This document shows, piece after piece, positions 2,850 through 43,394 of a stretch of 45,634 nucleotides of DNA; within the stretch, counting starts at the first letter, position 1, and each line of letters begins with the position of its first letter. A program made the position numbers and the translations under genes. Under the pieces are notes generated by a model, which saw only the letters and a program-made list of their open reading frames with translations, made no database searches and was not told the DNA's origin. Source of the DNA: an uncultured Jatrophihabitantaceae bacterium (GTDB lineage: Bacteria; Actinomycetota; Actinomycetes; Mycobacteriales; Jatrophihabitantaceae); assembly GCA_964657545.1 (NCBI GenBank), contig CAZZVT010000004.1:1-45634 (forward strand), given 5' to 3'.

Positions 2850-2853
2850 GAGG

Positions 2854-4220: not shown

Positions 4221-4259
4221 TCCGAGCACCCTACTGAAACGGCCGCTACCGTGTGGCCG
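4221..4259. promoter_or_regulatory. Back-to-back leaderless promoters (two TANNNT -10 boxes)
   Basis: Plus strand: TACCGT (4247-4252), 7 nt, GTG 4260. Minus strand: TAGGGT (4233-4228), 7 nt, ATG 4220. No Shine-Dalgarno for either gene. Confidence 0.7.
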
Positions 4260-5807: not shown

Positions 5808-7391
5808 CCCGAGCCTGCGCATCCGGCCCAGTCCGGCGCGGACGACTTTCTGCGCGAGGCCACCCGTCGAGGGACGAGCGGCCGGCGGGCGCACGGTCCT
5901 GCGGACGCTGAGGTTATCGGTGTCCTGCGTTGCGTAGGCGGACACGTCTGCGCCGTCGACGAACCGGTGGAGGGGGCCGGCTGCGCCGCCGAACGGCAGC
6001 CGTCGCTCCGACTCCCATCCGGCGACGCCCAGCCGTAGCCAGACGTCGCTGATCCGCGGCAGAGCATTGCCGAGGAACGCGGTTCTCGGGTCGATGGCGG
6101 CGCGCACCGTCGCGGCCAACCGGAGCCCGTCCTCGTGATCCACGACGGTCACCTGCCCCTGTGACGCCACGTCGGCCACGTCGCGTGTCGTCCGATCACG
6201 CAGCACGATGTTGATCTTCGCGTGGTCAACGGCGTCGGTGATGTCCAGCGTGTCCGGGGGAAGCTCGTCGGCCACCGGACCGGGCACCACCCGCAACACC
6301 CGACCCCCGTCGCGGCGCAACGGGACGGGGGAACCGCTGCGGTCGACGAGCACCGCGCTCGCGGTCAGCATCAGGACGTCTCCGGACCAGTGCAGGTCCG
6401 TGGTGGCGACCGAAGCGGTGGTCGCGACGTCGTGCTGCGCGAGCAGTCGCAGCAGATCCAGGCGGCCGACCCGCACGAGGTGTGCCCGCGCGCGGTCGCG
6501 TGAGGCCAGCGCATCGTCCATCGACGGCGCGAAGCGGGCCAGCGTGATCCGGCGGACCTCGTCGAACAGACGCTGCTGGTGCTCGGCCGAGGAGTCGACG
6601 AAGGTCGCGGAGCCGACCCGCCGCAGCATGTTCACGACGTACCACTGCCGGTAGAGCCGGTCGCGGAGCTCGCCGGGTTCGGTGTTCGCCGCGACGACGT
6701 CGAGCACACCGTCGAGGTCGCGGAAGTAGGAGCGCGGGTCGACCTGCTGCAGCGAGGCGTTGTTGTCGTCGCGGTGCACCCAGTGGTAGCAGACGTGATC
6801 GCTGTACGTGGACACGACGTCGGCCGCGAAGTAGGCCTTGGTGATCACCAGGTGGTCTTCGAGCCGGACCTTGCCCTCGGGGAAGCGGATGCCGTGCTCG
6901 ACCAGGAAGCTGCGCCGGAACAGCTTGTGCGGGGTCGGCGGGACCCATAGCGGGTCGGTGCCGATCTCGGCCCGCGGCTTCGTGCTGGCGAAGGCCTCCC
7001 ACCCCCAGCTGTGGCCGTGCCCCGTCTCCTTGGGCACGACGACGTCCGAACCGTGCTCGTCCGCGAAATCGACCAGGCGCTCGAGGGCGTCGGCAGGGAG
7101 CCAGTCGTCGTGGTCGGCGAAGAAGACATAGGTGCCTCGGGCGACGTCCACACCGAGGTTGCGGGGGCGCCCGGGCCAGCCGGAGTTCGGGGTGTTGTGC
7201 AGGACGGTGACGTTGGGCCGGCCGGCGGCGAAGGCCTGCAGCCGCTGACGCGAGCCGTCGGTGGAGTCGTCGTCGACGAAGACGACCTCCCACTCGTCGC
7301 GCGGCAGCGACTGCGCCAGCAGACTGTCGATCAACTGGTCGATGTGTGCGCCCGGGTTGAACACCGCGGTGATCACGCTGACTCTGATCAA
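5802..7391 (-). CDS. GT2 glycosyltransferase, paralog of 4260-5807
   Basis: [64 protein letters not shown] start with GAAGGGG upstream. Confidence 0.88.
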
Positions 7392-8344: not shown

Positions 8345-9900
<1,556 letters not shown>

Positions 9901-9901
9901 C

Positions 9902-10753
9902 GTGCGCTGGCTGATCACGGGAGCCGGCGGCCAGCTGGCGACGCACGCGCTCGAGCAGCTGACCGCGTCCGGTGACGACGTCGTCGCGCTGTCCAGCGGC
10001 GCCCTCGACATCACCGACGCCGCCGCCGTGCGCGCCGCGGTCGCCGAGCACCGCCCCGACGTCCTGCTCAACGCCGCCGCCTACACCGCGGTCGACGCCG
10101 CCGAGGAGCACGAGGACATCGCCGAGCGGGTGAACGTCGTGGGCCCCCGGCTGCTGGCCGAGGCGCTGGCCGAGCTGGGCAACGGTCGGTTGCTGCACGT
10201 CTCGACCGACTACGTCTTCGACGGCACCGCCGGGCATCCCTACGAGCCCGACGATCCGACCGGTCCGCAGAGCGCCTACGGCCGCACCAAGCTCGCCGGC
10301 GAGCACGCTGTCCGCGCCGCCCTGCCCGACCGGTCGCACGTCGTGCGGACGGCCTGGATCTACGGCGGTCCGGGGGCCAACTTCGTCGACACCATGCTGA
10401 AGTTCGAGCGTGAACGCGACACCGTCGACGTCGTCGCCGACCAGATCGGCTGCCCCACCTACGTCGGCGACCTCGCCGCCGGGCTCATCGCGCTGGGTCG
10501 CTTGGACCTACCCGGCGGTACGTTGCACTTCGTCAACGGCGGGCAGGCGTCCTGGTTCGACCTCGCACGCGAGGTCTTCCGCCTGTCCGGTGCCGATCCC
10601 GAGCGGGTCCGCCCCACCGACAGCGCAGCGTTCGTCCGGCCCGCCAAGCGCCCGGCCTGGTCGGTGCTGTCGACCGCGGCGTGGGTCGCGGCGGGCCTGC
10701 CCGAACCGCGGCCCTGGCAGGACGCGCTGGCCGACAAGCTCTCGCGCGGCTGA
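9902..10753 (+). CDS. rmlD: dTDP-4-dehydrorhamnose reductase
   Basis: TGAGGQL, NAAAYTAVDAAE, HVSTDYVFDG, YGRTKLAGE, DQIGCPT. Confidence 0.96.
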   Translation: MRWLITGAGGQLATHALEQLTASGDDVVALSSGALDITDAAAVRAAVAEHRPDVLLNAAAYTAVDAAEEHEDIAERVNVVGPRLLAEALAELGNGRLLHVSTDYVFDGTAGHPYEPDDPTGPQSAYGRTKLAGEHAVRAALPDRSHVVRTAWIYGGPGANFVDTMLKFERERDTVDVVADQIGCPTYVGDLAAGLIALGRLDLPGGTLHFVNGGQASWFDLAREVFRLSGADPERVRPTDSAAFVRPAKRPAWSVLSTAAWVAAGLPEPRPWQDALADKLSRG

Positions 10754-15300: not shown

Positions 15301-15819
15301 ATGTTCTGCGACGAGCAGTCAGGCTCGACGGTGCTGCCAGCCGCCGGTGTCGGCCGGCCGGCATCGCCGGTGCACGGGTCGCCGTCGCTGGTCGTCAGGG
15401 CCGCGCTCGATCGCGGCGTTGCGCTGCTGGCCCTGGTGCTGCTCGTGCCGTTGCTGCTGGCCATTGCCTTGGTCATCCGGTGCACCAGCCACGGCCCGGC
15501 ACTGGTGCGGCAGGCCCGCGTCGGTCTCGACGGCCGCACCTTCGCAATGCTGAAGTTCCGCAGCATGTACTACGGCACCGAGCGTCGCCTCGTCGAACTT
15601 CTCGCCGCCGACAAGTCGGCGGGCGGCCTGCTGTTCACGATGCGCGACGACCCGCGCGTCACGCCGATCGGGCGCGTGCTGCGCCGGTTCTCACTCGATG
15701 AGTTGCCGCAGCTGCTGAACGTGCTCACCGGCTCTATGTCGCTCCTCGGCCCCCGGCCGCAGCTGCGCAGTGACCTGTCGTGGGCGGACTCACTCGAACC
15801 TGACCAGCTGTGTTGTTGA
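15301..15819 (+). pseudogene. Priming phosphoglycosyltransferase (Bac_transf; PglC/WcaJ/CpsE C-domain type), C-terminally truncated
   Basis: Re-entrant helix RAALDRGVALLALVLLVPLLLAIA, then QARVG, KFRSM, DPRVTPIGRVLRRFSLDELPQLLNVLTGSMSLLGPRP and a stop about 20 aa later. I found no KPGxTGxxQ or D..Y segment in any frame downstream. Confidence 0.7.
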
Positions 15820-18442: not shown

Positions 18443-19141
18443 ATGCGGCTGCACGCCGTGGTGCCCAGGCGGCACGACGTTCGTTGGGCGCGCTGCCTGC
18501 GGGCGGTGCCCATATACGCGATCGCGACGTTCACGATCCTCTGTGGCCTTTTAACCGCCTGCTCGGGCGGCTCCTCCGGTCATGCGGTGGCCTCGTCGCG
18601 GGGTGCGACCTCCGCACCGGCACCGGTCACGTCGGCTGCCTCGGTCGTTGCGTCCGCGACGGCCACGCCGAGCGCAGCGCCCACCACGCCTGTCGCGCCG
18701 CCGACAAGCGGCGGGATCCACAGCACGGTGGCGAGTCGAGCAGTAACGACCCAGGCCGCGGTCGCGCTCACCGCGACCGCGCACTTCTCCTCATCGGTCT
18801 CGGTGGCGTTGGGGTCGATCACGCCGGTTAATGGGAAAGCGCACCTGCCCGGTGAGGTGTCCGGCCCCGCCCTGTCGCTTCGCATCCGGGTGGCAAACCG
18901 ATCGGGCGCTGCGCTCGACCTGTCGAACGCAGCGGTAGCGGTCGTGGGTGCCGGTAACAAGCCGGAGGGGCAGCTCGCCTACAACGGCAGCTCCCGGTTC
19001 CCAGCATCGCTCGCCGCCGGCAAGACTGCGACCGGGGTCTACGTCTTTACGGTTCCGGTCGCGGACCGCTCTCATCTGCAGGTGTCCATCAGCTACACCG
19101 CTGGCGTGCCAGTCGTGTTCTTTGTCGGAAGTGTTCGGTGA
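18443..19141 (+). CDS. Putative lipoprotein with Ser/Thr/Pro linker and C-terminal Ig-like (DUF4352-like) domain
   Basis: Basic N-terminus, hydrophobic stretch and lipobox LLTA-C; S/T/A/P-rich linker; beta-rich end (IRVANRSGAALDL...SLAAGKTATGVYVFTVP). Possible extended -10 TGT-TAGCGT at 18383-18391. Confidence 0.7.
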   Translation: MRLHAVVPRRHDVRWARCLRAVPIYAIATFTILCGLLTACSGGSSGHAVASSRGATSAPAPVTSAASVVASATATPSAAPTTPVAPPTSGGIHSTVASRAVTTQAAVALTATAHFSSSVSVALGSITPVNGKAHLPGEVSGPALSLRIRVANRSGAALDLSNAAVAVVGAGNKPEGQLAYNGSSRFPASLAAGKTATGVYVFTVPVADRSHLQVSISYTAGVPVVFFVGSVR

Positions 19142-19155
19142 ATCGGGGGATTCAG

Positions 19156-22100
19156 ATGTCGGGGAACGAAGTTGCACGCGCCAAGCGCACACGCTGGTTG
19201 GGTTTGACCACGTCGGCATTGACGATCGTCGGTCTGGCTGTCGTTGGCGTCGGCACAGCCCTTCCGGCTTCTGCGGATACCCCTTCGACGGTGAGTCCGG
19301 TGGTCCAGCGTTCGGCGTCGAATGTCACTGCCGACGCACTGCCGACGGTGCAACTCGACAACGGTGTCGTGTGGTCGGAGACAACCGTCGGAAACACCGT
19401 CTATGCCGGTGGTCAGTTCTCCAACGTCCGGCCTGCGGGAGCGGCGGCTGGGACGAATCTGACGGCCCGTGGCAACCTCCTAGCCTTCGACATCACGACC
19501 GGCAACCTGGTGACCTCCTTCGCGCCCAACCTGAACGGCATGGTCAAGGTCGTGGCCGCTTCGCCCGACGGCAAGACGCTGTACGTCGGCGGTTCCTTCA
19601 CCACCGCTAACGGCGCGACCCGCAACAAGGTGGTCGCATACAACACCGTGACCGGCGCCGTGGTCGGCACCTTCGCGCCCTCGGTCAACCTCACCGTCAA
19701 TTCCATCGTCGCGACCGCCACCACCGTGTATCTGGGCGGTGACTTCACCCAGGTCAACGGTCAGAACCGTTCGCACCTGGCCGCGGTCAATGCCTCCGAC
19801 GGTTCTCTGACCGCCTGGGCCCCGACTGCCGACGCCACGGTCCAGACAATGGTGCTGTCGCCGGACGGAACCCGCCTCATCGTGGGCGGCGCATTCCAGA
19901 ATCTGAACGGCGCGCCTGCTTACGGGCTCGGTTCACTCGACCCGACGAGCGCGGTGCTCTATCCCTTTGCGGCCAACCAGGTCGTACGCGACGCGGGGGC
20001 CAACGCCCAGATCCTGAGCCTGACCACCGACGGCACCTACGTGTACAGCTCGGCCTACGTCTACGGCAGCAGCGGCAACTTCGAGGGAGTGCTGTCCGCG
20101 GATCCGGACACCGGCGCCATCCACTGGCTCGCCGACTGCCATGGCGACACCTACGCGACCTTCGGGGTCAACAACATCGTCTACGTCGTGAGCCACCAGC
20201 ACTTCTGCAGCAACATCGGCGGCTTCCCGGACACCAACCCGCGCAATATCTGGCACCGCACGACGGCGTTCACCCAGGCGGCGACCGGTACGGTCCAGCC
20301 GAACTCCGAGGGTGGGTACAGCGACTTCTCCGGCAATCCGAGCCCGTCGCTGATCGATTGGATGCCGGACCTCGCGGCCGGTACGTACACCCAGACCGAC
20401 CAGGCTGCCTGGGCAATGACCGGCAACAGCAAGTACCTCGTCGAAGGCGGCGAGTTCCCGTCGGTCAATGGCACGGCCCAGTACGGGCTGGTGCGGTTCG
20501 CCACCCCGGCCGTGACGACCGATCAGCAGGGCCCGATGCTCTACGGCTCGGCGATCACGCCCATCGTCATCGCCCGATCCTCGACCTCGGCCCGCATCAC
20601 GTGGCCGTCGAACTGGGACCGAGACGACCTGAACCTGACGTACACGATCCGCCGCTCGGACAAGGGCTCGACCCCGATCTACTCGGTCGTCGCGCCGTCG
20701 GAATCGTGGAACCTGCCGACCCAGGGCTTCACGGACACTGGTTTGACACCCGGAGCGACGTACAGCTACACCGTGAGGGCAACAGACCCGAGCAGCGGCA
20801 AGTATCAGGGCAGCGCCAGCGTCTCGGTGACTCTGCCGCTGACCGCGGCGACGGACAGCCAGTACACCAAGGACGTCCTCGGGGCGGGGGCGACCGACTA
20901 CTGGAAGCTCGACCAGGCCGCCGGGGCCACGTCGAACATCGACTACGCCGGCTACCACGACCTGACGCTCGGCTCCGGTGTGACCGGCGGCGGCGCCGGC
21001 GCGATCTCCGGCGACAGTGACACCGCGTCGTCCTTCGACGGCTCCGCGAGCGGTTTCGGAGCCTCCAACGGGTCGGTCCCCGGACCGAACACGTTCACCG
21101 AGGAGGCATGGTTCAAGACCACGTCAACTGCGGGCGGAAAGATCGTCGGTTTCGGTGACCAGAACACCGGCACCAGCTCGAACTACGACCGCCACGTCTA
21201 CATGGACACCGGCGGCCACATCAACTTCGGCGTTTACAACAACACCAGCTACGTGATCACCTCTCCCGGTGTCTACAACGACGGTGCGTACCACCAGGTG
21301 GTGGCCTCGTTGTCGGGTTCAGGGATGGCTTTGTACGTCGACGGCCGTCTCGTCGGGACGAACACGGGCACCACGGTCGGGCAGCCGTACAACGGCTACT
21401 GGCGCGTCGGTGGCGACTCCAGCTGGTCCGGTGCGAACTTCTTCACCGGCACCATTGACGAGGTCGCCATCTATCCGACGGCGTTGACTGCCGCCCAGAT
21501 ACGCCAGCAGTACGCCGATAGCGGCCGCGCCATCGCCGGCACGAGGGTGCCCTCGGACTCCTACGGCGCCGCGGTGTGGAATCTTTCGCCGAGCGCGTAC
21601 TACCGACTCGACGAGACGACCGGCAACACCGCGACCGACCTGTCCGGAAACAGCGCCAACGCGACGTACTCAGGAAACGTCACTCGCGCCGCCGCCAGCA
21701 CAGTCTCGGGGGGAGACACCGCGGCCGGGTTCGACGGGTCGTCGGCCACGGTCGGATCCAACGACCTCGTCGCCAGCCCACAGACGTATTCCGAGCAGGC
21801 CTGGTTCAAGACCACGTCGACCGCGGGCGGCAAGATCATCGGTTTCGGGAACAGCCAGAGCGGCAACAGCGGGAGCTACGACCGGCACGTGTACATGCTC
21901 GCCGACGGACAGCTCGTGTTCGGCACCTATACCGGTCAGCTGAATCTCGCAACCTCGCCGCACAGCTACAACGACGGAACCTGGCATTCGGTGACGGCAA
22001 CGCAGGGCGTTGACGGTATGACGCTCTACGTCGACGGCCAGGCCGTGGCCACCAACGCGCAGACGTCGGCCCAGTCCTACAACGGGTACTGGCGCATCGG

Positions 22101-23889
22101 TGGCGACAACCTCAACGGTTGGAACGCCGACAACGCTTACTTCTCCGGCTCCATCGACGAGGCCGCCTTCTGGAACACGACAGAGCTGACCGCGGCCCAG
22201 ATCCTGTCCGAATACAGCGCGTCGCCAGCGGCGGTCCGCGTCGGCCCGACCGCGGCGTTCGTCGCGACACCGACCAACCTGTCAGTGGCATTTGACGCCT
22301 CCGGATCCAGCGGACAGGCCGGTACCTCGATCATGGGCTACAGGTGGGACTTCGGTGACGGTACGAGCGGAACCGGTGTCTCGCCGTCGCACTCCTACGC
22401 GTCTGCAAGCTCGTACACCGTCACTCTGACCGTCACGGACAGCAATGCACAGACCGGAACGATCAGTCATTCGGTCACTACGACGGCACCGAACGTGGCG
22501 CCGAGCGCCGCGTTCACCGCGGTACCGACGAATCTGTCCGTTGCGTTCGACGGGTCCGCGTCCTCGGCCCAGACCGGGGCGACTATCACCAGTTACAGCT
22601 GGGACTTCGGTGACGGGTCTTTCGACACCGGTGCGAAGCCGGTGCACGTCTACGGTGCCGCCGGGACGTTCCAGGTGAGGCTGACCGTCACTGACAGCAA
22701 CGGCCTCACGTCTTCTGTGACCCACTCGGTGACAACGATCGCAGCGAACAAGGCGCCGGTGGCTGCATTCACGTCGTCGGTGACAAACCTGTCGGTCGCA
22801 TTCGATGCCTCCACCTCCAGCGACCCGGACGGCTCTGTGTCCAGCTATGCCTGGGACTTCGGTGACGGCACGTCGGGGACCGGCGTCAATCCGACCCACG
22901 TCTTCACCAAGGCCGGGTCGTACACGGTGGTGCTGACGGTCACCGACAACGCAGGTGCGACCACCTCGATCTCGCACGTCGTGACACCGAACGTGGCGGC
23001 CAACCAGCCGCCGGTCGCGGCCTTCGCCTCGGCAGTGTCGAACCTGTCGGTGACCTTCGACGGATCTGGCTCCTCGGATCCGGACGGCACAGTGGCCTCC
23101 TACGCCTGGACATTCGGCGACGGGACCACCGGTTCGGGCGCAACCCCCACCCACCAATACGCCGCGGCCGCGACCTACAACGTCACGCTCATGGTGACGG
23201 ACAATCAGGGTGCGACCAACTCGATCATCAAGGCGATCACGACGACCGCGGCAGCGGCCTCGATCGCTGCCGACGCCTTCGGCCGCACGGCGGCCGGTCA
23301 GTGGGGTACCGCCGATACCGGCGGAGCCTGGACGACCACGGGGTCGGCGTCCTTGTTCGCGGTGGACGGCAGCTCCGGCACCATGAATCTGTCCGTGCCC
23401 GGTACCGCGCTCGTCGCATCCCTGAATTCTGTCTCGACGGCGAACCTCAACGCGGTTGCCGACATCTCCGTCAACGCCACAGCGGTCGGTAACGGGGTGG
23501 CTTTGACGATGATCGGTCGGCAGGTCGGCAAGTCGAACTACGAGCTGAAGATTCGGCTGCTGCCGGGCGGGGTCGTACACCTGACCCTGTCCAAGGTGAT
23601 CAGCGGAACGGAGACGATCTTCAAGGAGGTCAACATCTCGGGCCTGACCTACAACGTCGGCGATGTGCTGCGCTTTCGGTTCCAGATCGTGGGAACCGGC
23701 ACTGCGACCCTGTCCGGGAAGGTGTGGAAGCTCGGCACGACGGAGCCCACGGCAGCCCAGATCACGCAGACCGACTCGACGGCAGCTCTGCAGAGCGCGG
23801 GCAGCTTCGCTCTGCAAGCCTTCCTCTCGGGTTCGTCGACCAACCCGATGATCGTCAAGTGGGACAATCTGCAGGTCACGAGCAGCTGA
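19156..23889 (+). CDS. Large secreted protein: beta-propeller, FN3, 2x LamG/ConA-like, 4x PKD, C-terminal beta-sandwich
   Basis: Signal peptide ending ALPASA; repeated YxGGxF blades; FN3 FTDTGLTPGATYSYTVRATD; two EAWFKTTSTAGGKIxGFG...IDEVA domains; four Y.WDFGDG PKD repeats. No sortase or TM anchor at the C-terminus. Confidence 0.9.
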   Translation: MSGNEVARAKRTRWLGLTTSALTIVGLAVVGVGTALPASADTPSTVSPVVQRSASNVTADALPTVQLDNGVVWSETTVGNTVYAGGQFSNVRPAGAAAGTNLTARGNLLAFDITTGNLVTSFAPNLNGMVKVVAASPDGKTLYVGGSFTTANGATRNKVVAYNTVTGAVVGTFAPSVNLTVNSIVATATTVYLGGDFTQVNGQNRSHLAAVNASDGSLTAWAPTADATVQTMVLSPDGTRLIVGGAFQNLNGAPAYGLGSLDPTSAVLYPFAANQVVRDAGANAQILSLTTDGTYVYSSAYVYGSSGNFEGVLSADPDTGAIHWLADCHGDTYATFGVNNIVYVVSHQHFCSNIGGFPDTNPRNIWHRTTAFTQAATGTVQPNSEGGYSDFSGNPSPSLIDWMPDLAAGTYTQTDQAAWAMTGNSKYLVEGGEFPSVNGTAQYGLVRFATPAVTTDQQGPMLYGSAITPIVIARSSTSARITWPSNWDRDDLNLTYTIRRSDKGSTPIYSVVAPSESWNLPTQGFTDTGLTPGATYSYTVRATDPSSGKYQGSASVSVTLPLTAATDSQYTKDVLGAGATDYWKLDQAAGATSNIDYAGYHDLTLGSGVTGGGAGAISGDSDTASSFDGSASGFGASNGSVPGPNTFTEEAWFKTTSTAGGKIVGFGDQNTGTSSNYDRHVYMDTGGHINFGVYNNTSYVITSPGVYNDGAYHQVVASLSGSGMALYVDGRLVGTNTGTTVGQPYNGYWRVGGDSSWSGANFFTGTIDEVAIYPTALTAAQIRQQYADSGRAIAGTRVPSDSYGAAVWNLSPSAYYRLDETTGNTATDLSGNSANATYSGNVTRAAASTVSGGDTAAGFDGSSATVGSNDLVASPQTYSEQAWFKTTSTAGGKIIGFGNSQSGNSGSYDRHVYMLADGQLVFGTYTGQLNLATSPHSYNDGTWHSVTATQGVDGMTLYVDGQAVATNAQTSAQSYNGYWRIGGDNLNGWNADNAYFSGSIDEAAFWNTTELTAAQILSEYSASPAAVRVGPTAAFVATPTNLSVAFDASGSSGQAGTSIMGYRWDFGDGTSGTGVSPSHSYASASSYTVTLTVTDSNAQTGTISHSVTTTAPNVAPSAAFTAVPTNLSVAFDGSASSAQTGATITSYSWDFGDGSFDTGAKPVHVYGAAGTFQVRLTVTDSNGLTSSVTHSVTTIAANKAPVAAFTSSVTNLSVAFDASTSSDPDGSVSSYAWDFGDGTSGTGVNPTHVFTKAGSYTVVLTVTDNAGATTSISHVVTPNVAANQPPVAAFASAVSNLSVTFDGSGSSDPDGTVASYAWTFGDGTTGSGATPTHQYAAAATYNVTLMVTDNQGATNSIIKAITTTAAAASIAADAFGRTAAGQWGTADTGGAWTTTGSASLFAVDGSSGTMNLSVPGTALVASLNSVSTANLNAVADISVNATAVGNGVALTMIGRQVGKSNYELKIRLLPGGVVHLTLSKVISGTETIFKEVNISGLTYNVGDVLRFRFQIVGTGTATLSGKVWKLGTTEPTAAQITQTDSTAALQSAGSFALQAFLSGSSTNPMIVKWDNLQVTSS
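20863..22215 (+). repeat. Tandem LamG-like domain duplication (~695-nt period)
   Basis: TGGTTCAAGACCACGTC(A/G)AC(T/C)GCGGGCGG(A/C)AAGATC starts at 21109 and 21802. Confidence 0.8.
22246..23245 (+). repeat. Four tandem PKD repeats (~255-nt period)
   Basis: Each unit reads PxAAF...NLSVxFDxSxS...YxWDFGDG...VxLTVTD. TGGGACTTCGGTGACGG recurs three times. Confidence 0.85.
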
Positions 23890-30747: not shown

Positions 30748-32061
30748 GTGCAGAGCCGCAGAGCCTCACCACGGGTGGAAGCCGCGGTCTCGACTATGAG
30801 CGCAGTTGTCGCTGATCCGCAGGTCCCCGATCTTTCACCGCCGACTTCCGACTGTGTGGACACCTTCGCCATTTTCCAGCAAGGTGCGGCGCTGCTTGCG
30901 GCATTCCTGGTGGGCTTCTCCGTCACGCTGCACGCAGGTGTGACCGCGGGACAGGTCGTCGCATTTCTGCTGATACCGCTGTGGGCGCCCGCACTCTCGC
31001 GCTTCGCCGGGGCACGGACCGTGCTGGCCTTGGGTGTCGTTACCGTTACGGCCGGCTACCTGTTGTCCGCCGACGCAGCGACCGAGGGCTTCCTGATCAG
31101 CGGGTCGAATGCTCTGCATGGGATCACCGACCTGCTCGGGGCGGTCGTGTGCATCGGCGTCCTGCTGTGGGGCAGGACGGTGGTGGGTCTGCCCTCCCTG
31201 GGCGCGGCGACAGGTTTCGGCATGATCGCCTATGCCGCGGTGAGTGGCACGAATGCGGACGGCAATGCGTGGAAATTCATCTGGGCTGTGCCGGTCAGCG
31301 TCTTCGTGTTGGGTCTGAGCACCCGCAGCGCTCGGATCGCGCCCGGCGTTGTGATGTTGCTGCTGCTGACGGTGGTGTCGGCCGTCGAATCCTGTCGTTC
31401 GTATTCGGCCGCACTGGTGCTGACTGCGGTGGTCCTGCTGTGGCGAGCGCGTGCAGGCCACCCCGGGTCCCGCCGGTCGTGGTGGGTGCTGACGGCCGGC
31501 TTCGTCGCTGCCCTGGCCGCAGGCCTTTATTATCTCGCGTCGTCGCTCCTGGTCTCAGGTTACCTCGGTGCTGCGTCGCAGGCGCGCACCATCGCGCAGT
31601 TGCAAACCAGCGGCTCGCTGCTCCTGGGGGGGAGGCCGGAGATCTCCGCCACCTGGGCCCTGATGAAGTACCGGCCCAGCGGGTACGGCATTGGGGTCAT
31701 CCCCGGTCCGCAGGATATTTTGATCGCCAAATCCGGAATGTCGAACATCGGCTACAACCCGGACAACGGCTACGTCGAGAAATACATGTTCGGCGGCCAC
31801 ATCGAATTGCATTCGGTCATTGGTGACATGTGGGCGTCGTACGGGATCATGGGAGTCGTATTCACAGCTGCGGTCGCTGTGCTGATGGTGAGGCACCTGT
31901 CGATCGGCATCTCGCGTCGTCAGGGCAATGCGTTGACGTTCTTCCTCGCGGTATGGATGTTATGGAATGTGGCTTTCAGTCCGCTTGCGTCGTCGATGTC
32001 GGTCCTGATCCTTGCGGTTGCTGCTCTATTGCCGGACAAACAGCGATCTGTGACCGCGTGA
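30748..32061 (+). CDS. wzy: Wzy polymerase / O-antigen-ligase-like membrane protein
   Basis: About 10-11 hydrophobic helices, a large loop near the C-terminus with GYGIG and IELHSVIGDMWASYGIMG (Wzy_C-type H...G..G motif). Start is 30748 or ATG 30796. Confidence 0.72.
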   Translation: MQSRRASPRVEAAVSTMSAVVADPQVPDLSPPTSDCVDTFAIFQQGAALLAAFLVGFSVTLHAGVTAGQVVAFLLIPLWAPALSRFAGARTVLALGVVTVTAGYLLSADAATEGFLISGSNALHGITDLLGAVVCIGVLLWGRTVVGLPSLGAATGFGMIAYAAVSGTNADGNAWKFIWAVPVSVFVLGLSTRSARIAPGVVMLLLLTVVSAVESCRSYSAALVLTAVVLLWRARAGHPGSRRSWWVLTAGFVAALAAGLYYLASSLLVSGYLGAASQARTIAQLQTSGSLLLGGRPEISATWALMKYRPSGYGIGVIPGPQDILIAKSGMSNIGYNPDNGYVEKYMFGGHIELHSVIGDMWASYGIMGVVFTAAVAVLMVRHLSIGISRRQGNALTFFLAVWMLWNVAFSPLASSMSVLILAVAALLPDKQRSVTA

Positions 32062-38269: not shown

Positions 38270-39220
38270 TCACCGGCCCTCGGGAAGCAGGCTCTCCAGC
38301 CGACCCTGCAACCGGGCCTCGACCGCGGTTCGGTGGCGCTGGCGAACCACGGACGCCCAGTGCGCTGCAGCCTCCCGGTGTTCCCGCGGCACGCGCAGCG
38401 GTCCGACGGCTCCCGGCCGCAGGGCTGCGCTGACGGCTCGGAAGTACACCTCGTCTGCACCCGGAGGTAACCAGGCGGCGTCCTCCCAGTCGATGAGCCA
38501 GGTACCGGTGTGTGAGCGCCGCAGGTTCCACGGGATGAGGTCGCCGTGCGCTCCACGCCAATGCTCCGGCGTCCCGGCGGGGCGTGTCACGACCTGCTCG
38601 ACGATGTCGGTCACCTGAGCAGTGAGCGCGTCGGGTAGACGCCGTACAGGACGGTGCGGCCGGGCAGAGATCGTCTGGTAAGCGGCCCAGTGCCAGCCAG
38701 CTGCCGACCCCTGCCCCACGAGCGGAGGGACTGAAAAAGTGTCCGGTCGACCTGTGGCCGCCACGGTACTGACGGCGCTCTCGCGCACCAGGGACAGCTT
38801 GTCGGCTCGCACCCGGATGAGTACCGACCGCGCCCCGGCACACAGCATCACCGTCAGGCTGGCGCGGCTGTGCTGGAGGCGCTCGTAGATGGCAACGCCG
38901 TCGACCGGCATGCCGAACGTCTGGATCCAGTCGTTCCACAGCTCTGTCAGATCTTCGCGAGAGATCGGCGGCGTCCACCGCTCCCGGTCGCCGAAAACCA
39001 ACCTGCCACGCGACAGCTTGGCTGCGAGCCACAACCCGTGCTGCGCCACGAGCGGCAGAGGTTTGCACGCGGAGTACATGCACATACCGATGTCGGTGGC
39101 GCCGGGTCGGGCGGCCGGAACCAACACGTTGCGCCATCGCGGAGGAAAACGGACGTAGTCGTCGTCCAGCCATGACGGCGTGAGGGGAAGCCCGCCTACA
39201 GCTTTCACGGTCACCCCCAT
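38270..39220 (-). CDS. APH/choline-kinase-fold phosphotransferase
   Basis: Catalytic HGDLIPWNL and metal-binding LIDWE motifs. Start is ATG 39220 or GTG 39208. Confidence 0.75.
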   Translation of the reverse strand: MGVTVKAVGGLPLTPSWLDDDYVRFPPRWRNVLVPAARPGATDIGMCMYSACKPLPLVAQHGLWLAAKLSRGRLVFGDRERWTPPISREDLTELWNDWIQTFGMPVDGVAIYERLQHSRASLTVMLCAGARSVLIRVRADKLSLVRESAVSTVAATGRPDTFSVPPLVGQGSAAGWHWAAYQTISARPHRPVRRLPDALTAQVTDIVEQVVTRPAGTPEHWRGAHGDLIPWNLRRSHTGTWLIDWEDAAWLPPGADEVYFRAVSAALRPGAVGPLRVPREHREAAAHWASVVRQRHRTAVEARLQGRLESLLPEGR

Positions 39221-39290
39221 GGCCAGGTCGGAACTCTCGTCGCAACCCCTCGTGAGGGTATTGCCCTGCGTTCCGCCAACGCAGGCGGGG

Positions 39291-39306
39291 ACCCTAGACT
39301 GGGGTG
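39291..39306. promoter_or_regulatory. Overlapping divergent -10 boxes for the kinase and sulfotransferase genes
   Basis: ACCCTAGACT: plus TAGACT (39295-39300), 6 nt, ATG 39307; minus TAGGGT (39296-39291). Confidence 0.55.
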
Positions 39307-40218
39307 ATGGACGACGCCGGGGTGCGCCCACAGATCGGTCGCTCCAGGAACCCGGTCATCGGGGCGGGACGTCACCTGATCCGCAGCTACGGAGCAGCAA
39401 CCTCGGCATGGCGTCCGGATCCTGACTTTCTGGTGATCGGCGCCAAGCGGGGTGGCAGCACGTCGTTCTACTTCGATCTGCTGTCTCACGATCAGGTCTG
39501 TCCCCTATTCCCGCGTGCGGACCGGCTGCCGAAAGACGAAGCGACCAAAGGCGTCCATTACTTCGACGTCAACTTCGACCGCGGACCACGCTGGTACCGC
39601 TCGTACCTGCCGAGCAGCTATGCGCGAGCCAGGCTCGCCTCCAAGGTCGGGGCGCCCGTGGTCACCGGCGAGGCCTCGCCCTATTACCTGTTCCATCCGC
39701 TGGCTGCCCAACGCGCGGCCGCGTTGGTACCCGGTGCAAAGATCATCGCTGTGCTGCGTGATCCGGCCATGCGCAGCTATAGCCACTGGAAGGAACGCCG
39801 CAGGGGCGGGTACGAGGATTTGAGCTTCGTCGACGCGCTGGCGGCAGAGGCCGATCGGGTCAGGGATGCAGAACAGCGGCTGCGCCGCGATCCCGGCTTC
39901 TACAGCTACGCACACGAACACCAGTCGTATGTGCGTCAGAGCCAGTACGCCGACGGACTGGAGCCGTGGCTACTGCGCTTTCCCGGCCGCGTTCTGGTGG
40001 TGTCCAGCGAGGATTACTACCGCGACCGGCAGGCCGTGCTTGATCGTGCCGCCGATTTCCTCGGTCTGCGGAGCACGCCGCTGGATCTGGGCGGGGTCCG
40101 CAACGCCGCTCCGGGCGACGACCTCGACCCGTCGCTCCGTCGCAATCTCGCGGCGCAATTCGCTTCGTTCAACGAGCGGCTCGAACAACTGACCGGCGAG
40201 CGGTTCGCCTGGTCGTGA
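39307..40218 (+). CDS. PAPS-dependent sulfotransferase (heparan-sulfate-sulfotransferase-like)
   Basis: 5'-PSB loop PDFLVIGAKRGGSTS, KGVHYFD, GEASPYY, 3'-PB LRDPAMRSYSHW, SQYADGL. Confidence 0.9.
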   Translation: MDDAGVRPQIGRSRNPVIGAGRHLIRSYGAATSAWRPDPDFLVIGAKRGGSTSFYFDLLSHDQVCPLFPRADRLPKDEATKGVHYFDVNFDRGPRWYRSYLPSSYARARLASKVGAPVVTGEASPYYLFHPLAAQRAAALVPGAKIIAVLRDPAMRSYSHWKERRRGGYEDLSFVDALAAEADRVRDAEQRLRRDPGFYSYAHEHQSYVRQSQYADGLEPWLLRFPGRVLVVSSEDYYRDRQAVLDRAADFLGLRSTPLDLGGVRNAAPGDDLDPSLRRNLAAQFASFNERLEQLTGERFAWS

Positions 40219-40351: not shown

Positions 40352-42169
40352 TCATCGGCCGGCCGTGCAACGGCGGTCGATGTCAGTGACCTCGGGCCGC
40401 ACCAGAGGCTGTTTCAGCACCGACAGCGGACCGCTCGGGCTCGGCTCGCGAACGACGACCGTGAGCGTGCGGCTCGTCCCGACCGGCAGCTCGACGTCCA
40501 CGGTCGTGGCCACGAGACCCTTCTCCGGCGCCGTGGACACCCCGACCGGTTTTCCGTCGACGGTCACCGACACGATGCCGGCGCCGGGGCTCGCGTAGTA
40601 GGTGACGAGCACCCGGTTGTCCCCGGGCCTGACGTTCGCCGGATGCTGGTCGTTGCGCAGGGTCACGTAGGTCGGCAACCCGGAACGCGGGGCGTTGTTG
40701 GTCAGGGTGAAGGTCGCGCGGGCGGTCGACCCTGCTGCGCAGCTCGTGGGCCGGTACGTCATCCTGCGGTCGAGGTAGTAGTCCAGCTTGTTACCGCCCG
40801 CGTTGACGACGGTGAAACCGGTGAACGCGGGCGACGGTTCGAGCACCGCCCCGTAGCCGGCCCCGACGATGCGCTTCTCGGTGGCGGTGTCCGCGCTCCA
40901 GATGGCGAAGCGGCGCTGTTCGGTTGCCGTCGCCAACGCGCTGACGAGTCGCAGCGGCGTGCGGCCACCCGCGCCGGTCAAGGTCTTGGCGGCCGCGGCG
41001 GCAATGCTTCGCAGGTAGGCGTTGCTGCGTGCATCGGAGGCGAACTCGGCATAGACCGTGCTCTGGGTCAGCGCGACCACGTTGCTCGCGCCGACCCGGG
41101 TGCCGTCGGCCAGTGTGGCCGGTCCGGTGACCTTGAGCAGGTAGCTCAACGTCGTGGGATCCAGGACGGCTACACCGTCGATGTGCTGTCCGGATTTCTG
41201 CTGCCACATCGCCGACCAGATCCGGGCGGCGTCGCGCAGGTCGGGACTGATGTCGGAGTTCGCGTACTCGTTCGCCGGGTCGTCCTGGCTGTAGCGCGCG
41301 TCGTACTCGGCGCCGAGGTCGAGCCCCGTATGCACCTTGTGGAACTCCGTGTCGCTTCCGAAGTGGGTGAAGCGAAACCGTCCGCGGTCGACGGTCAGGA
41401 TGGCGAAGGCCCCCGGCAGCCCACCGAGGCCGCGAGCCTCGGCCTCGTTCATGAAACCCACGAAGAACGTCTGCGGACGTGTCAGTCCGAGCAGCGGAGT
41501 CAGGGCGCCGGCGGCCCGATTGACGACGACGAGCCGCTGGTTGACGTCCTGCAGGCTGCGTAGCACCCGTGTCCGTGCACGGCTCACGACCGGCAACCAG
41601 CTTGCGTCGGAGCCCGCCACCGCTGCGGCCGCCCGACGAGAGGCGACGGTCGCTGCGTTCAGCGAGGTCGTCACCCGGCCCACCGTCGCCGTGGTGATGT
41701 TGTTCGTGTTGATGCTCTTGGTACCGCCGTCGGGTGTCTGGAGCAACGTCGCGGCAGCGTCGAGCAGCGCCGGTGCCTGCGCACTGACACGCTGAACCTG
41801 GCCGGTGAGCGCCCGGACCGTGCGTAGCGGCGAACCGGCCACCGGCAGATTGGCCACCGTCCACCACGCCGGGCCCGCGGTCAGCCGTCGTGCGGTGCGT
41901 GCCTCGCCGGCGATCTTGTCGGCCAGTGCGCGCGCGTGCGACAGATCACCCGCTGTGATGGCACGTTTGAGCGCCGGCACCTCGTGTTCGGCGGCATTGA
42001 GGCGCGAGCGCGCCAGTAACCCGGTGACGAGGATCCACACGAAGGTCAGCACGACCAGCCCGACGATCACGCCGAACAGGATCAGGTAGATCCGCTGGGC
42101 CCGGGTGCGTACATCAGCGCGTGGCCTCCGGCGTATGCGACCGAGAAATGTCAACGACTGCTGCTCCAC
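40352..42169 (-). CDS. DUF4012 domain-containing membrane-anchored protein
   Basis: N-terminal TM helix, helical stalk (PAWWTVANLPVAG), FMNEAEARGLGGLPG, NSDISPDL, IDGVAVLDPTTLSYLLKVTGP, NAGGNKLDYYL. Start is GTG 42169 or TTG 42154 (GGAG upstream). Confidence 0.85.
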   Translation of the reverse strand: MEQQSLTFLGRIRRRPRADVRTRAQRIYLILFGVIVGLVVLTFVWILVTGLLARSRLNAAEHEVPALKRAITAGDLSHARALADKIAGEARTARRLTAGPAWWTVANLPVAGSPLRTVRALTGQVQRVSAQAPALLDAAATLLQTPDGGTKSINTNNITTATVGRVTTSLNAATVASRRAAAAVAGSDASWLPVVSRARTRVLRSLQDVNQRLVVVNRAAGALTPLLGLTRPQTFFVGFMNEAEARGLGGLPGAFAILTVDRGRFRFTHFGSDTEFHKVHTGLDLGAEYDARYSQDDPANEYANSDISPDLRDAARIWSAMWQQKSGQHIDGVAVLDPTTLSYLLKVTGPATLADGTRVGASNVVALTQSTVYAEFASDARSNAYLRSIAAAAAKTLTGAGGRTPLRLVSALATATEQRRFAIWSADTATEKRIVGAGYGAVLEPSPAFTGFTVVNAGGNKLDYYLDRRMTYRPTSCAAGSTARATFTLTNNAPRSGLPTYVTLRNDQHPANVRPGDNRVLVTYYASPGAGIVSVTVDGKPVGVSTAPEKGLVATTVDVELPVGTSRTLTVVVREPSPSGPLSVLKQPLVRPEVTDIDRRCTAGR

Positions 42170-42176
42170 AACGACA

Positions 42177-42210
42177 GCAGCTCAGGCGGGTGATACCCCG
42201 CCTGAGCTGC
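42177..42210 (-). terminator. Perfect 14-bp GC-rich hairpin between the small anchor gene and DUF4012
   Basis: GCAGCTCAGGCGGG / CCCGCCTGAGCTGC with a 6-nt loop; only a weak U-tail (TGTCGTT) on the minus strand. Confidence 0.7.
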
Positions 42211-42223
42211 AGGCTTCGTCAGG

Positions 42224-42583
42224 TCAGCCGTGGCGGCGACGTCGGCCCAGGCCGAGGAAGATCGCCCCGCCACCGAGCAGAGCGAGCGCGATCGTGGTGG
42301 CCGCGACAGTCTGGAAGCCCGTGGACGACAGACCCTCGCTGCGGTTGTTGTTCGTTCCCGCGGCCGCGGACGACGACGAGGCTGAGTCCGAGGTGCTCGG
42401 TGCCCGCGACTCGCTCGTCGGCGCAATGCTGAACGATCCGGTCGGGTTGGTCGGCGGGTACGGATCCGCCGAGGCCGAGCTGATGTGTGCGCTCATCAGG
42501 AGCACTGCGATCAGTGCGACCGCGAACGCGAGCAGCGCCGTTGCGCGGCGCGAAATCGGCCGATGAATCGAATTTGTTGACAT
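42224..42583 (-). CDS. 119-aa Ser/Thr-rich secreted protein with sortase-type sorting signal (LSSTG-TM-RRRR)
   Basis: Signal peptide ending SSASA, mature N-terminus DPYPPT, GLSSTG, hydrophobic helix, GRRRRHG. Candidate -10 boxes TACGGT/TAACCT at 42625-42635. Confidence 0.8.
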   Translation of the reverse strand: MSTNSIHRPISRRATALLAFAVALIAVLLMSAHISSASADPYPPTNPTGSFSIAPTSESRAPSTSDSASSSSAAAGTNNNRSEGLSSTGFQTVAATTIALALLGGGAIFLGLGRRRRHG

Positions 42584-42671
42584 GGTGAAACAGCCCCCCG
42601 GTTGTCTTGATCTTTCGAGTTGTGAGGTTACCGTAATCTTCGCTGCTGCGCTATCGGGAACGATTGCGACG

Positions 42672-43394
42672 TCAGCCTGCGCGTCGCGTGAGGACCAGAA
42701 CCGCCAGCCCGCCGGCCAGCACGAGCAGTGCGGCGATGGTGGCAATCACCCACAGCGGCAGGCCGAGGGCCGACGCGGTGACCCGATCGGCGTTGTTCGG
42801 CGCGCTCGTCAACGGTGTCGACGGCGTCGTCGGCGTCGTCGGCCGGGTCGAAGTCGGCGCCGTTGAGCCTGTCGAGGGTGAGTCGGACGGTCTGGGCGCG
42901 GTCGTCGAGCTGGAACCCGACCCCGAAGAGCCCGCACCGCCGCCGGAAGATCCGTTCGACCCGCTTCCCGAGCCGCCTGCCGCCGAGCTGCTCGAGGGGC
43001 CGCCAGGCGGCGTGCTGCCGCTGTTCGGTGGCGGCACCGAGCACCTGCGGTTCGACGAACTGGCCGTCACCCAGGCCTCGTCGGTGCTCGGGAGATGGAC
43101 GGCGGCCTCGAAGGCGCCGTTGGAGTTCGTGGCGTACCTGCCCAGACCTCGAGCCTGCGGGTACAGCGTCACCGTGACCGCTTGGTTGATGTCGTATCCG
43201 CTGCCCACGAGGACGGGGTGCTGGGTGGAGGTGTTGATCCACGACAGCGAGCACGGTGAGGTGGGGGGGTAGGGCGCAGCTGCAGCCGAGGATGCGAGGG
43301 ACCCCGCCGACAGGCCCAGGAGCGCGGTCGACAAGATCACCCCGATCACTCGGGTGCTACGGCTTGAGAGCCGGCGACAAGCGCCAAGCAACAT
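42672..43394 (-). CDS. Secreted Ser/Gly/Thr/Pro-rich surface protein with small Ig-like domain and C-terminal TM-RR tail
   Basis: Signal peptide ending SSAAA, mature N-terminus APYPPT, beta-domain bracketed by two Cys, low-complexity linker, TM helix, TRRAG. No clear LxxTG. Confidence 0.78.
   Translation of the reverse strand: MLLGACRRLSSRSTRVIGVILSTALLGLSAGSLASSAAAAPYPPTSPCSLSWINTSTQHPVLVGSGYDINQAVTVTLYPQARGLGRYATNSNGAFEAAVHLPSTDEAWVTASSSNRRCSVPPPNSGSTPPGGPSSSSAAGGSGSGSNGSSGGGAGSSGSGSSSTTAPRPSDSPSTGSTAPTSTRPTTPTTPSTPLTSAPNNADRVTASALGLPLWVIATIAALLVLAGGLAVLVLTRRAG

What the first reader, a model, noticed from the sequence alone, without database searches (positions are those of the whole stretch)
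40352..43394. Candidate glycopolymer-anchoring module: DUF4012 plus two PYPPT surface proteins
Seen: three co-oriented genes close the EPS locus. Two are small Ser/Thr-rich exported proteins whose predicted mature N-termini both begin xPYPPT (ASA|DPYPPT, AAA|APYPPT). One ends in an LSSTG-TM-RRRR sortase-type signal and has almost no folded domain. DUF4012 follows. I see no canonical LCP (LytR-CpsA-Psr) gene in the window. Known: Gram-positive Wzy polymers are normally attached to the envelope by LCP enzymes, and in Actinomyces oris LcpA glycosylates the sortase substrate GspA. Inference: the DUF4012 segment IDGVAVLDPTTLSYLLKVTGP resembles the LCP 'IDYYV.vnf.gf..lvDalGGV' element. DUF4012 may therefore be an LCP-like ligase that transfers the polymer onto a sortase-anchored peptide carrier recognised through PYPP. 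This would be a protein-tethered capsule, conceptually like PEP-CTERM systems.
Basis: partly seen in the sequence, partly recalled or inferred. Interest (0 to 1): 0.8.

Follow-up and report, generated by a model that had tools for sequence, protein, structure and literature searches.

The report
Tyrosine peptide stalk for capsule anchoring
A widespread membrane protein of unknown function in a surface-sugar gene cluster is predicted to fold like the enzymes that fasten sugar polymers to Gram-positive cell walls, and it sits beside tiny exported proteins whose one shared residue is a tyrosine near the tip, which likely serves as the hook on which the polymer is hung.

Summary
The three genes are real and as described. 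An AlphaFold model of DUF4012 (pLDDT 96) matches LCP ligases first (ranks 1-10 of 48,161 chains, Z 9-12), with no sequence-level LCP match and only part of the LCP arginine set. A sortase-signal ORF lies within 1.2 kb of DUF4012 in 75 of 140 actinomycetotal loci. 56 of 69 such proteins carry Tyr in the first 12 mature residues, against 5 of 49 in genomes without DUF4012. PYPPT is not the signal (0 of 69); the Tyr is. Some carriers are about 20-residue stubs. Both DUF4012 genes of this genome have a carrier upstream. Best reading (0.5): DUF4012 transfers the lipid-linked polymer onto that Tyr and sortase ties the peptide to the wall. Against: 16 mycobacterial/rhodococcal loci have no carrier, 4 of 4 such genomes lack sortase, this copy has Ser at a conserved Arg, the local priming transferase is broken, and nothing is shown biochemically.

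The parts
40352..42169 (-). DUF4012 membrane protein (605 aa from GTG 42169; the database call is 600 aa, consistent with a TTG start at 42154). Arg-rich cytoplasmic tail, one TM helix, helical stalk, LCP-like domain, beta-sandwich.
41489..42094 (-). TM helix (res 26-50) running into an all-helical stalk (to res 227); only generic helical-bundle matches
40856..41485 (-). LCP-like domain (res about 229-438)
   Evidence: Foldseek ranks 1-9 are LCPs; VIA-align ranks 1-10 are LCPs, Z 9.0-12.2, rmsd 3.9-5.2 over 156-179 residues
41420..41449 (-). Motif N241-x-x-E244-x-R246-x-x-G249-G250 after strand 1 (E 111/115, R 113/115, G250 115/115); candidate metal/phosphate-binding loop (inferred)
41024..41026 (-). 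Ser382, where the family has Arg 91/115 or Gln 19/115 and the six closest database relatives checked have Arg; no variant in 4 runs
40775..40792 (-). Motif N460-K461-L-D463-Y-Y (K 112/115, D 104/115) at the start of the beta-sandwich; outside the part that aligns to LCPs
40355..40840 (-). C-terminal beta-sandwich domain (res about 444-605); best match 4g2a, Z 9.0, function not inferable
42224..42583 (-). 119-aa candidate carrier: signal peptide, DPYPPT, Ser/Thr linker, LSSTG, TM, RRRR; predicted wall-linked peptide of 49 aa
42458..42460 (-). Tyr42 of the 119-aa protein (mature +3), its only Tyr in the mature part; proposed acceptor
42317..42331 (-). LSSTG sorting motif
   Evidence: TIGR01167 13.5 bits, below its 15.9 cut-off
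42672..43394 (-). 240-aa second candidate carrier: signal peptide, APYPPT, Ig-like domain (res about 48-122), Gly/Ser/Thr/Pro linker, C-terminal TM with RR but no xxxTG motif, so predicted to stay membrane-anchored
43269..43271 (-). Tyr42 of the 240-aa protein (mature +3)

Best explanation
DUF4012 is predicted to fold like an LCP ligase and likely moves the finished surface polysaccharide from its lipid carrier onto the conserved tyrosine at the tip of the small exported protein encoded next to it, which a sortase would then tie to the cell wall. Shown by sequence: the three genes, the Tyr at +3, the sorting signal, the pairing across the phylum, and a class E sortase in the genome. Predicted: fold and membrane topology. 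Inferred: (1) the donor is the undecaprenyl-pyrophosphate-linked product of the neighbouring Wzx/Wzz-Wze pathway; (2) transfer is a phosphotransfer, as in LCPs, giving a Tyr-O-phosphate-glycan link, with E244, R246, R382, K461 and D463 as the active site; (3) the 119-aa protein is the wall-linked stalk and the 240-aa protein a membrane-tethered second acceptor. The phenol of Tyr is more acidic than a sugar 6-OH (textbook), which could explain why the general-base Arg of LCPs seems to be missing (speculative).
For: Fold: AF2 pLDDT 95.7, pTM 0.93. LCPs take Foldseek ranks 1-9 and VIA-align ranks 1-10 among 48,161 chains (Z 9.0-12.2); the best other rows match mainly the beta-sandwich (Z up to 9.0). 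An independent full-length model again ranks an LCP first (Z 11.4), among generic helical-bundle hits to the stalk. Pairing: sortase-signal ORF within 1.2 kb in 75 of 140 loci, 65 of 124 with both flanks held; 14 of 27 families in the phylum sample; 11 of 17 new loci from relatives. Tyr: 56 of 69 in the first 12 mature residues versus 5 of 49 for sortase-signal proteins of DUF4012-negative genomes and 49 of 309 for secreted-like ORFs of this genome; the rest of the mature carriers is 1.1% Tyr. In the hold-out, 8 of 11 have Tyr within 12 and 11 of 11 within 16 residues. Stub carriers of 78-89 aa leave room for no folded domain (L143, L108, L131). 7 of 20 non-adjacent sortase-signal proteins in DUF4012 genomes have the Tyr, 3 of them 26-35 kb from a DUF4012 without a neighbour. 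This genome's second copy is a cassette of priming transferase, Tyr carrier and DUF4012. A sortase gene lies within a few kb of DUF4012 and its carrier in six loci of five genomes. Precedent: A. oris LcpA phosphotransfers onto the adjacent gene's product GspA (PMC6381275); Tyr-linked glycans exist in S-layer proteins (PMC2943079).
Against: No biochemical test, and no model coordinates, so neither the lipid tunnel nor the 3D clustering of the conserved residues was checked. No sequence match to LCP: 0 of 115 hit PF03816, no PDB hit, hhalign probability 0.9%. Canonical LCPs from these genomes keep five Arg at 20-24 of 24 in the core motifs (six with R35); DUF4012 keeps one near-invariant Arg and one at 79%, and has no conserved Arg where SIPRD should lie (register inferred). 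The window's copy has Ser382 in place of that second Arg. 59 of 124 fully flanked loci have no sortase-signal neighbour within 1.2 kb. None of 16 mycobacterial/rhodococcal loci has a carrier, and 4 of 4 family-f2 genomes with DUF4012 lack a sortase, although their motifs are intact. The B. longum table lists cpsD-DUF4012-wzz without a carrier (PMC5412050). Seven neighbours have no Tyr near the tip on inspection (L053, L054, L101, L133, L153, L156, L160). The negative control is mostly one genus (g6). Carrier presence does not track core EPS markers in the fetched stretch (40 of 77 versus 22 of 43). The window's priming transferase is broken.
Confidence: 0.5

Rival explanations
1. DUF4012 is a pathway-specific LCP-like ligase that attaches the polymer to peptidoglycan or another wall glycan, as classical LCPs do. 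The Tyr peptide is only a non-covalent docking post or activator that holds the enzyme at the wall.
For: DUF4012 with intact motifs occurs without carrier or sortase in mycobacteria and rhodococci and without a listed carrier in B. longum. LCP attachment to MurNAc is the general rule (PMC7831098, PMC13721041 passages). An aromatic residue in a Pro-rich peptide is a common binding epitope (own knowledge).
Against: 51 of 51 DUF4012 genomes already have canonical LCPs. Strict Tyr (not Phe or Trp) at the free tip of otherwise disposable, sortase-anchored stubs fits a chemical acceptor better. The canonical Arg/Asp set is not kept.
Confidence: 0.2
2. The small protein is the carrier, but the polymer goes onto Ser/Thr residues of its linker; the Tyr is only the recognition element.
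For: The mature 119-aa protein is 41% Ser/Thr. The GspA attachment site is unknown and could be any O or N side chain (PMC6381275 Discussion). A few Tyr-less carriers exist.
Against: Linkers vary freely, and several are Gly, Asp/Glu or Asn-rich rather than Ser/Thr-rich (L051, L041, L069), whereas the Tyr is kept.
Confidence: 0.13
3. The Tyr is O-glycosylated by a Wzy_C/WaaL-type oligosaccharyltransferase, as in Paenibacillus S-layer proteins. DUF4012 has a side role, such as lipid-carrier recycling or chain release.
For: Tyr O-glycosylation by the predicted Wzy_C-domain enzyme WsfB is described (PMC2943079 passages). The window has an unassigned multi-TM protein at 30748-32061. An earlier scan note pairs a similar stub with a WaaL-like ligase (e1-4308484, not checked).
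Against: The carrier gene is tied to DUF4012, not to a Wzy_C gene; the C161 cassette has only priming transferase, carrier and DUF4012. 30748-32061 has no Pfam or NCBIfam hit.
Confidence: 0.09
4. DUF4012 is a non-catalytic LCP-fold scaffold or sensor (or this copy is decaying), and the small proteins are structural surface peptides co-expressed with the capsule.
For: Canonical catalytic residues are only partly kept; this copy has Ser382 and a broken priming transferase upstream.
Against: Near-invariant Glu, Arg, Lys and Asp across sequences of 19-55% identity; 7 of 8 strain differences in the DUF4012 gene are synonymous.
Confidence: 0.08

Closest known systems
Actinomyces oris LcpA-GspA-SrtA pathway (PMC6381275; abstract, passages and whole Discussion read)
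   Same: An LCP-fold membrane enzyme encoded next to a sortase substrate; proposed phosphotransfer of a lipid-linked glycan onto the protein before wall anchoring. LcpA (5v8c) is rank 3 in the fold search, Z 9.9.
   Different: LcpA has the canonical Arg set; DUF4012 shows no PF03816 match and adds a helical stalk and a beta-sandwich. The carriers here are stubs down to about 20 mature residues with one conserved Tyr, often in Wzx/Wzz-type loci; the GspA glycan and site are unknown. GspA itself was not compared.
LCP (LytR-CpsA-Psr, PF03816) glycopolymer-peptidoglycan ligases: Cps2A, TagT/U/V, S. aureus LcpA
   Same: N-terminal TM anchor, extracellular alpha-beta-alpha core of the same predicted topology, position in capsule loci.
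   Different: 6-15% identity, rmsd 4-5 A, a different conserved residue set (E244, R246, K461, D463, Y373), a proposed protein acceptor; coexists with canonical LCPs in 51 of 51 genomes.
Tyrosine O-glycosylation of S-layer proteins (P. alvei SpaA/WsfB; PMC2943079, passages read)
   Same: A long glycan hung on a Tyr of a surface protein in a Gram-positive bacterium.
   Different: Glycosidic link made by a predicted Wzy_C-domain transferase onto a large S-layer protein; here an LCP-fold enzyme, a tiny sortase-anchored peptide and, by inference, a phosphodiester.
PEP-CTERM/exosortase (PMC1569441; search listing only)
   Same: Low-complexity exported proteins with a C-terminal sorting signal, associated with EPS loci.
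   Different: Gram-negative system with exosortase and many substrates per genome (recalled); here LxxTG signals, a true sortase, and one or two carriers per DUF4012.

Membership tests
LCP ligases (PF03816) | N-terminal TM anchor with an extracellular core domain | tested here: met
   Hydrophobic helix at res 26-50 after an Arg-rich tail; feature from PMC7831098
LCP ligases (PF03816) | LCP alpha-beta-alpha fold | tested here: met
   On predicted models only: Z 12.2, rmsd 4.0, 175 aligned to 3pe5; ranks 1-10 all LCP
LCP ligases (PF03816) | Sequence match to PF03816 | tested here: not met
   0 of 115 members at E up to 1; hhalign probability 0.9%
LCP ligases (PF03816) | Conserved Arg cluster capping the tunnel (LcpA R128/R149/R266) and two metal-binding Asp | tested here: inconclusive
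   R246 113/115, R382 91/115 (Ser in this copy), E244 111/115; no conserved Arg at 270-274 (8/115 at 272). Register rests on topology and a weak profile alignment; no residue-level superposition was available.
LCP ligases (PF03816) | Hydrophobic polyprenyl tunnel | not testable with these tools
   Model coordinates are not returned
LCP ligases (PF03816) | Pyrophosphatase/phosphotransferase activity | not testable with these tools
   Needs an assay
LcpA-GspA-type protein glycosylation | Sortase-substrate gene adjacent to the ligase gene, and a sortase in the genome | tested here: met
   54-bp gap to the 119-aa gene; class E and class F sortases in G000; 75 of 140 loci
LcpA-GspA-type protein glycosylation | Ligase-dependent high-mass glycoform of the substrate | not testable with these tools
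   Needs an experiment
Sortase substrates (LPXTG/LAXTG) | 119-aa protein: signal peptide, xxxTG motif, TM, basic tail | tested here: met
   LSSTG-TM-RRRR; 36.7 bits with my own tail profile, which includes this sequence; TIGR01167 just under its cut-off
Sortase substrates (LPXTG/LAXTG) | 240-aa protein: xxxTG motif before the TM | tested here: not met
   No motif found; no NCBIfam hit
PEP-CTERM/exosortase | PEP motif before the C-terminal TM | tested here: not met
   The tails listed carry xxxTG or no motif; PEP definition recalled
PEP-CTERM/exosortase | Exosortase (EpsH) gene | not tested
   Not searched
WsfB-type Tyr O-glycosylation | Wzy_C-domain oligosaccharyltransferase in the locus | tested here: inconclusive
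   30748-32061 is multi-TM but has no Pfam (E up to 0.01) or NCBIfam (E up to 0.1) hit

The most novel reading that the evidence does not exclude
Across Actinomycetota, a hidden LCP-fold enzyme family (DUF4012, about 16,000 clusters at 50% identity) hangs Wzy-type capsules on dedicated peptide stalks through a phosphotyrosine-glycan bond, and sortase fixes the stalks to peptidoglycan: a protein-mediated route of capsule anchoring with a linkage not described in the papers searched.
Probability: 0.35. Interest if true: 0.9.

Novelty: new variant of a known kind. Interest (0 to 1): 0.72.

Why it matters
A 2026 review still says that monoderm capsules are attached to peptidoglycan by LCP enzymes (PMC13721041 passages), and a 2021 review calls A. 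oris LcpA a so far unique protein-glycosylating LCP (PMC7831098 passages), with site and glycan unknown. This finding gives a fold and a likely job to a very large unknown family (15,993 clusters at E up to 0.001; 142 of 401 actinomycetotal genomes; also present in Bifidobacterium and CPR bacteria by the papers). It names one residue, Tyr at the tip of a short peptide, as the testable acceptor. A ligase that joins a whole polysaccharide to a short peptide tag at one site would also be useful for making glycoconjugates.

Tried and rejected
PYPP/PYPPT as the signal: rejected (0 and 2 of 69). DUF4012 as a replacement for an absent LCP: rejected. Tyr as a general trait of signal-peptidase sites or sortase substrates: rejected (5 of 49; 49 of 309). 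The Ig-like domain as the essential part: rejected, since stubs lack it; in DUF4012-negative genomes it occurred in 27 of 28 matches within frames of 468 aa or more. Sequence searches against PDB found nothing relevant. Foldseek rows for Hsp70 and diphtheria toxin have rmsd 15-34 A and TM up to 0.21 and were treated as noise. The stalk matches only generic helical bundles. No motif difference stood out by eye between DUF4012s with, without, or with Tyr-less carriers. The ESM Atlas gave no answer. A metagenome locus scan with the alignment could not be run, so no locus outside Actinomycetota was examined. No sigma-70 promoter match and no convincing terminator. No RNA holder listed. One off-frame row (L118) spoiled alignment A3, which was not used further. 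Literature: 'DUF4012' 3 papers, none proposing a fold in the passages read; 'PF13196' 0; combined-term searches 0, 0, 1 and 2 papers (the last two seen as listings only). The library covers open-access papers only, and no supplements were read; Supplementary Data 1 of PMC6744442 may hold an annotation of the family.
Full report
Observation. The window is the whole of contig C4 of a 3.7-Mb, 87.5% complete genome; the closest named DUF4012 relatives are from Jatrophihabitans. The three ORFs are on the minus strand between a convergent sulfotransferase gene (ends 40218) and a divergent mfd gene (from about 43717), at the end of a glycan locus with Wzx, Wzz/Wze, LMW-PTP and GT2/GT4 genes. No Wzy was identified by HMM. 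Both small proteins have a signal peptide followed by xPYPPT (heuristic script). The 119-aa protein ends in LSSTG-TM-RRRR and would leave a 49-residue wall-linked peptide with a single Tyr. The 240-aa protein has an Ig-like domain and a TM tail without a sortase motif. Contigs of four runs from one study show no indels, and 11 of 14 coding differences are synonymous.

Fold of DUF4012. An alignment of 115 sequences (19-55% identity to residues 225-605) gave a model with pLDDT 95.7. Foldseek ranks 1-9 are LCP structures (E 3e-5 to 1e-4). An exhaustive comparison with 48,161 chains puts LCPs at ranks 1-10 and 12, led by 3pe5 (Z 12.2, rmsd 4.0, 175 residues) and including A. oris LcpA, TagU, Cps2A and S. 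aureus LcpA (Z 9.8-9.9), all over model residues about 5-215; the C-terminal part is a separate beta-sandwich (same picture). A second model from the TM helix onward (146 sequences, pLDDT 94.6) shows a helical stalk between membrane and core and again ranks 3pe5 first, with generic helical bundles interleaved.

Active site. DUF4012 keeps E244 (111/115), R246 (113), G250 (115), D337 (113), Y373 (110), R382 (91, Gln in 19), K461 (112) and D463 (104). The 24 canonical LCPs keep D33, D45, R66, D67, R161, R163, D168, R171 and Q175 in 24 of 24. By topology R246 and R382 could match two LCP arginines, but there is no conserved Arg where the SIPRD element should lie, and K461/D463 lie outside the LCP-aligned part. 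In LcpA, R149 and R266 are essential and R149 is proposed as the general base (PMC6381275, passages and Discussion). So DUF4012 works like an LCP by fold but is not filed as a member. This copy has Ser382 where six close relatives have Arg; four runs agree with the window there.

Pairing. I examined 80 loci from the genome collection and 60 regions that I picked from 51 genomes among the listed matches of a 401-genome phylum sample, in which 142 genomes hold DUF4012 (that tally includes seven unpublished genomes, none of which was used for neighbourhood counts). With a profile of 59 sorting-signal tails taken from these neighbours (circular for detection, blind to Tyr), 75 of 140 loci have a sortase-signal ORF within 1.2 kb, and 65 of the 124 with both flanks held. 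At family level it is 14 of 27. A looser scan found further Tyr-tipped neighbours without a scored tail (L041, L069, L098, L103, L112, L114, L150). Of 18 loci from relatives fetched afterwards, one was a duplicate; 11 of the other 17 have such a neighbour. This genome's second DUF4012 lies in a cassette of intact priming transferase, 182-aa carrier (YPAG...LSNTG) and DUF4012. A sortase gene lies within a few kb of DUF4012 and carrier in six loci. 77 of 120 long loci have a priming transferase, Wzz/Wze, LMW-PTP or Wzx hit.

The conserved element is a tyrosine. Of the 75 neighbours, 69 got a cleavage call; 56 have Tyr in the first 12 mature residues and 59 in the first 16, while the rest of the mature regions is 1.1% Tyr. 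PYPPT occurs in 0, PYPP in 2 and YPP in 19; the residue after Tyr is P 26, T 9, G 7, V 6. Control: from 143 sorting-signal matches in 20 DUF4012-negative genomes I held 62 loci (30 returned, 32 picked for short frames); 49 proteins got a cleavage call, of which 5 have Tyr in the first 12 and 10 in the first 16. Most come from one genus and kin are not independent, so the Fisher value (4e-15) overstates. In DUF4012-positive genomes, 7 of 20 non-adjacent sortase-signal proteins have the Tyr, three of them 26-35 kb from a DUF4012 with no neighbour. In the hold-out, 8 of 11 have it within 12 residues and all 11 within 16. The shortest carriers are 78-89 aa precursors, leaving about 20-30 residues between Tyr and the sortase motif. 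In this genome, a pattern scan for signal peptide plus YP[PAS] returned 9 ORFs; three look like exported proteins with the motif right after a cleavage site, and all three lie next to a DUF4012 gene (my reading of the rows).

Against universality. 59 of 124 fully flanked loci have no scored neighbour. None of 16 mycobacterial and rhodococcal loci (14 named, 2 assigned by likeness) has a carrier, and 4 of 4 family-f2 genomes plus G170 have no sortase, against 49 of 54 overall with one, yet their motifs are intact. The B. longum locus table lists cpsD, DUF4012 and wzz with no carrier (PMC5412050 passages). Seven neighbours lack the Tyr. All 51 DUF4012 genomes tested also have canonical LCPs. The window's priming transferase (15301-15819) covers only positions 3-113 of 179 of PF02397, while intact ones lie on C161 and C48, so this locus may depend on them or be decaying.

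Mechanism. Most likely (0.5): repeat units are built on undecaprenyl phosphate, flipped and polymerised; DUF4012 breaks the pyrophosphate and transfers phospho-polymer to the tip Tyr of the freshly exported carrier; class E sortase links the 119-aa carrier to peptidoglycan, while the 240-aa protein stays in the membrane. Gene content and pairing are shown, the fold is predicted, and donor, chemistry and acceptor are inferred. Rivals: classical ligation to the wall with the peptide as a docking post (0.2), Ser/Thr as the acceptor (0.13), a Wzy_C-type transferase as the true ligase (0.09), a non-catalytic role (0.08).

Novelty. The closest system is LcpA-GspA-SrtA. 'DUF4012' occurs in 3 papers of the library, which call it an auxiliary envelope protein or a hub gene in the passages read; the other searches found no paper on this module. 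Earlier unchecked notes of this scan on other genomes already report the LCP-like fold and the pairing with a small sortase substrate; my reading was recorded before I saw them, and my word searches found none naming the carrier Tyr. Verdict: a new variant of a known kind, with a sharp test.

Noticed in passing
window 15301-15819 (+): Priming glycosyltransferase looks broken: it jumps from GPRPQL to RSDLSW, matches only 3-113 of 179 PF02397 positions and stops early. Intact paralogs lie at G000 C161:3636-5135 and on C48.
   Followed up: partly
G000 C161:1047-5135 (L026, L354): Three-gene cassette of priming transferase, Tyr carrier and DUF4012 inserted between hspR and clpB in the dnaK heat-shock region (gene names from my reading of the translations). 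It is the cleanest minimal module for testing.
   Followed up: partly
window 41024-41026: Ser382 (AGC) is one base from Arg (CGC), the family residue; the same in four runs.
   Followed up: yes
L069:7420-7830 and 9785-10504: A Sporichthya DUF4012 is flanked by two Tyr-tipped Ig proteins, one with no membrane anchor at all, which would be a secreted acceptor.
   Followed up: no
L053:7195-7809, L054, L101 (Dactylosporangium); L133, L153, L156, L160: Sortase-signal neighbours of DUF4012 with no Tyr at the tip; G109 has a Tyr carrier on another contig (L239).
   Followed up: partly
L089, L091, L092 upstream of DUF4012: Mycobacterial loci have small secreted-looking proteins (about 140-180 aa, no sortase signal) just upstream of DUF4012; possible alternative partners.
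   Followed up: no
L071, L078, L079, L082, L084 upstream of DUF4012: Rhodococcal DUF4012 genes sit head to head with a very large (over 2,300 aa) NRPS-like gene (label from my reading of the translation).
   Followed up: no
window 19138-23889 (+): 1,583-aa surface protein with beta-propeller, fn3, two LamG and four PKD domains inside the glycan locus.
   Followed up: no
window 38270-40218: A sulfotransferase gene and a kinase-like ORF without a family hit lie next to the module, suggesting a sulfated or phosphorylated polymer.
   Followed up: no
window 1080-7391: A separate teichoic-acid-like cluster (TagF-type polymerase, IspD/TarI, TarS-type glycosyltransferases) at the left end of the contig.
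   Followed up: no
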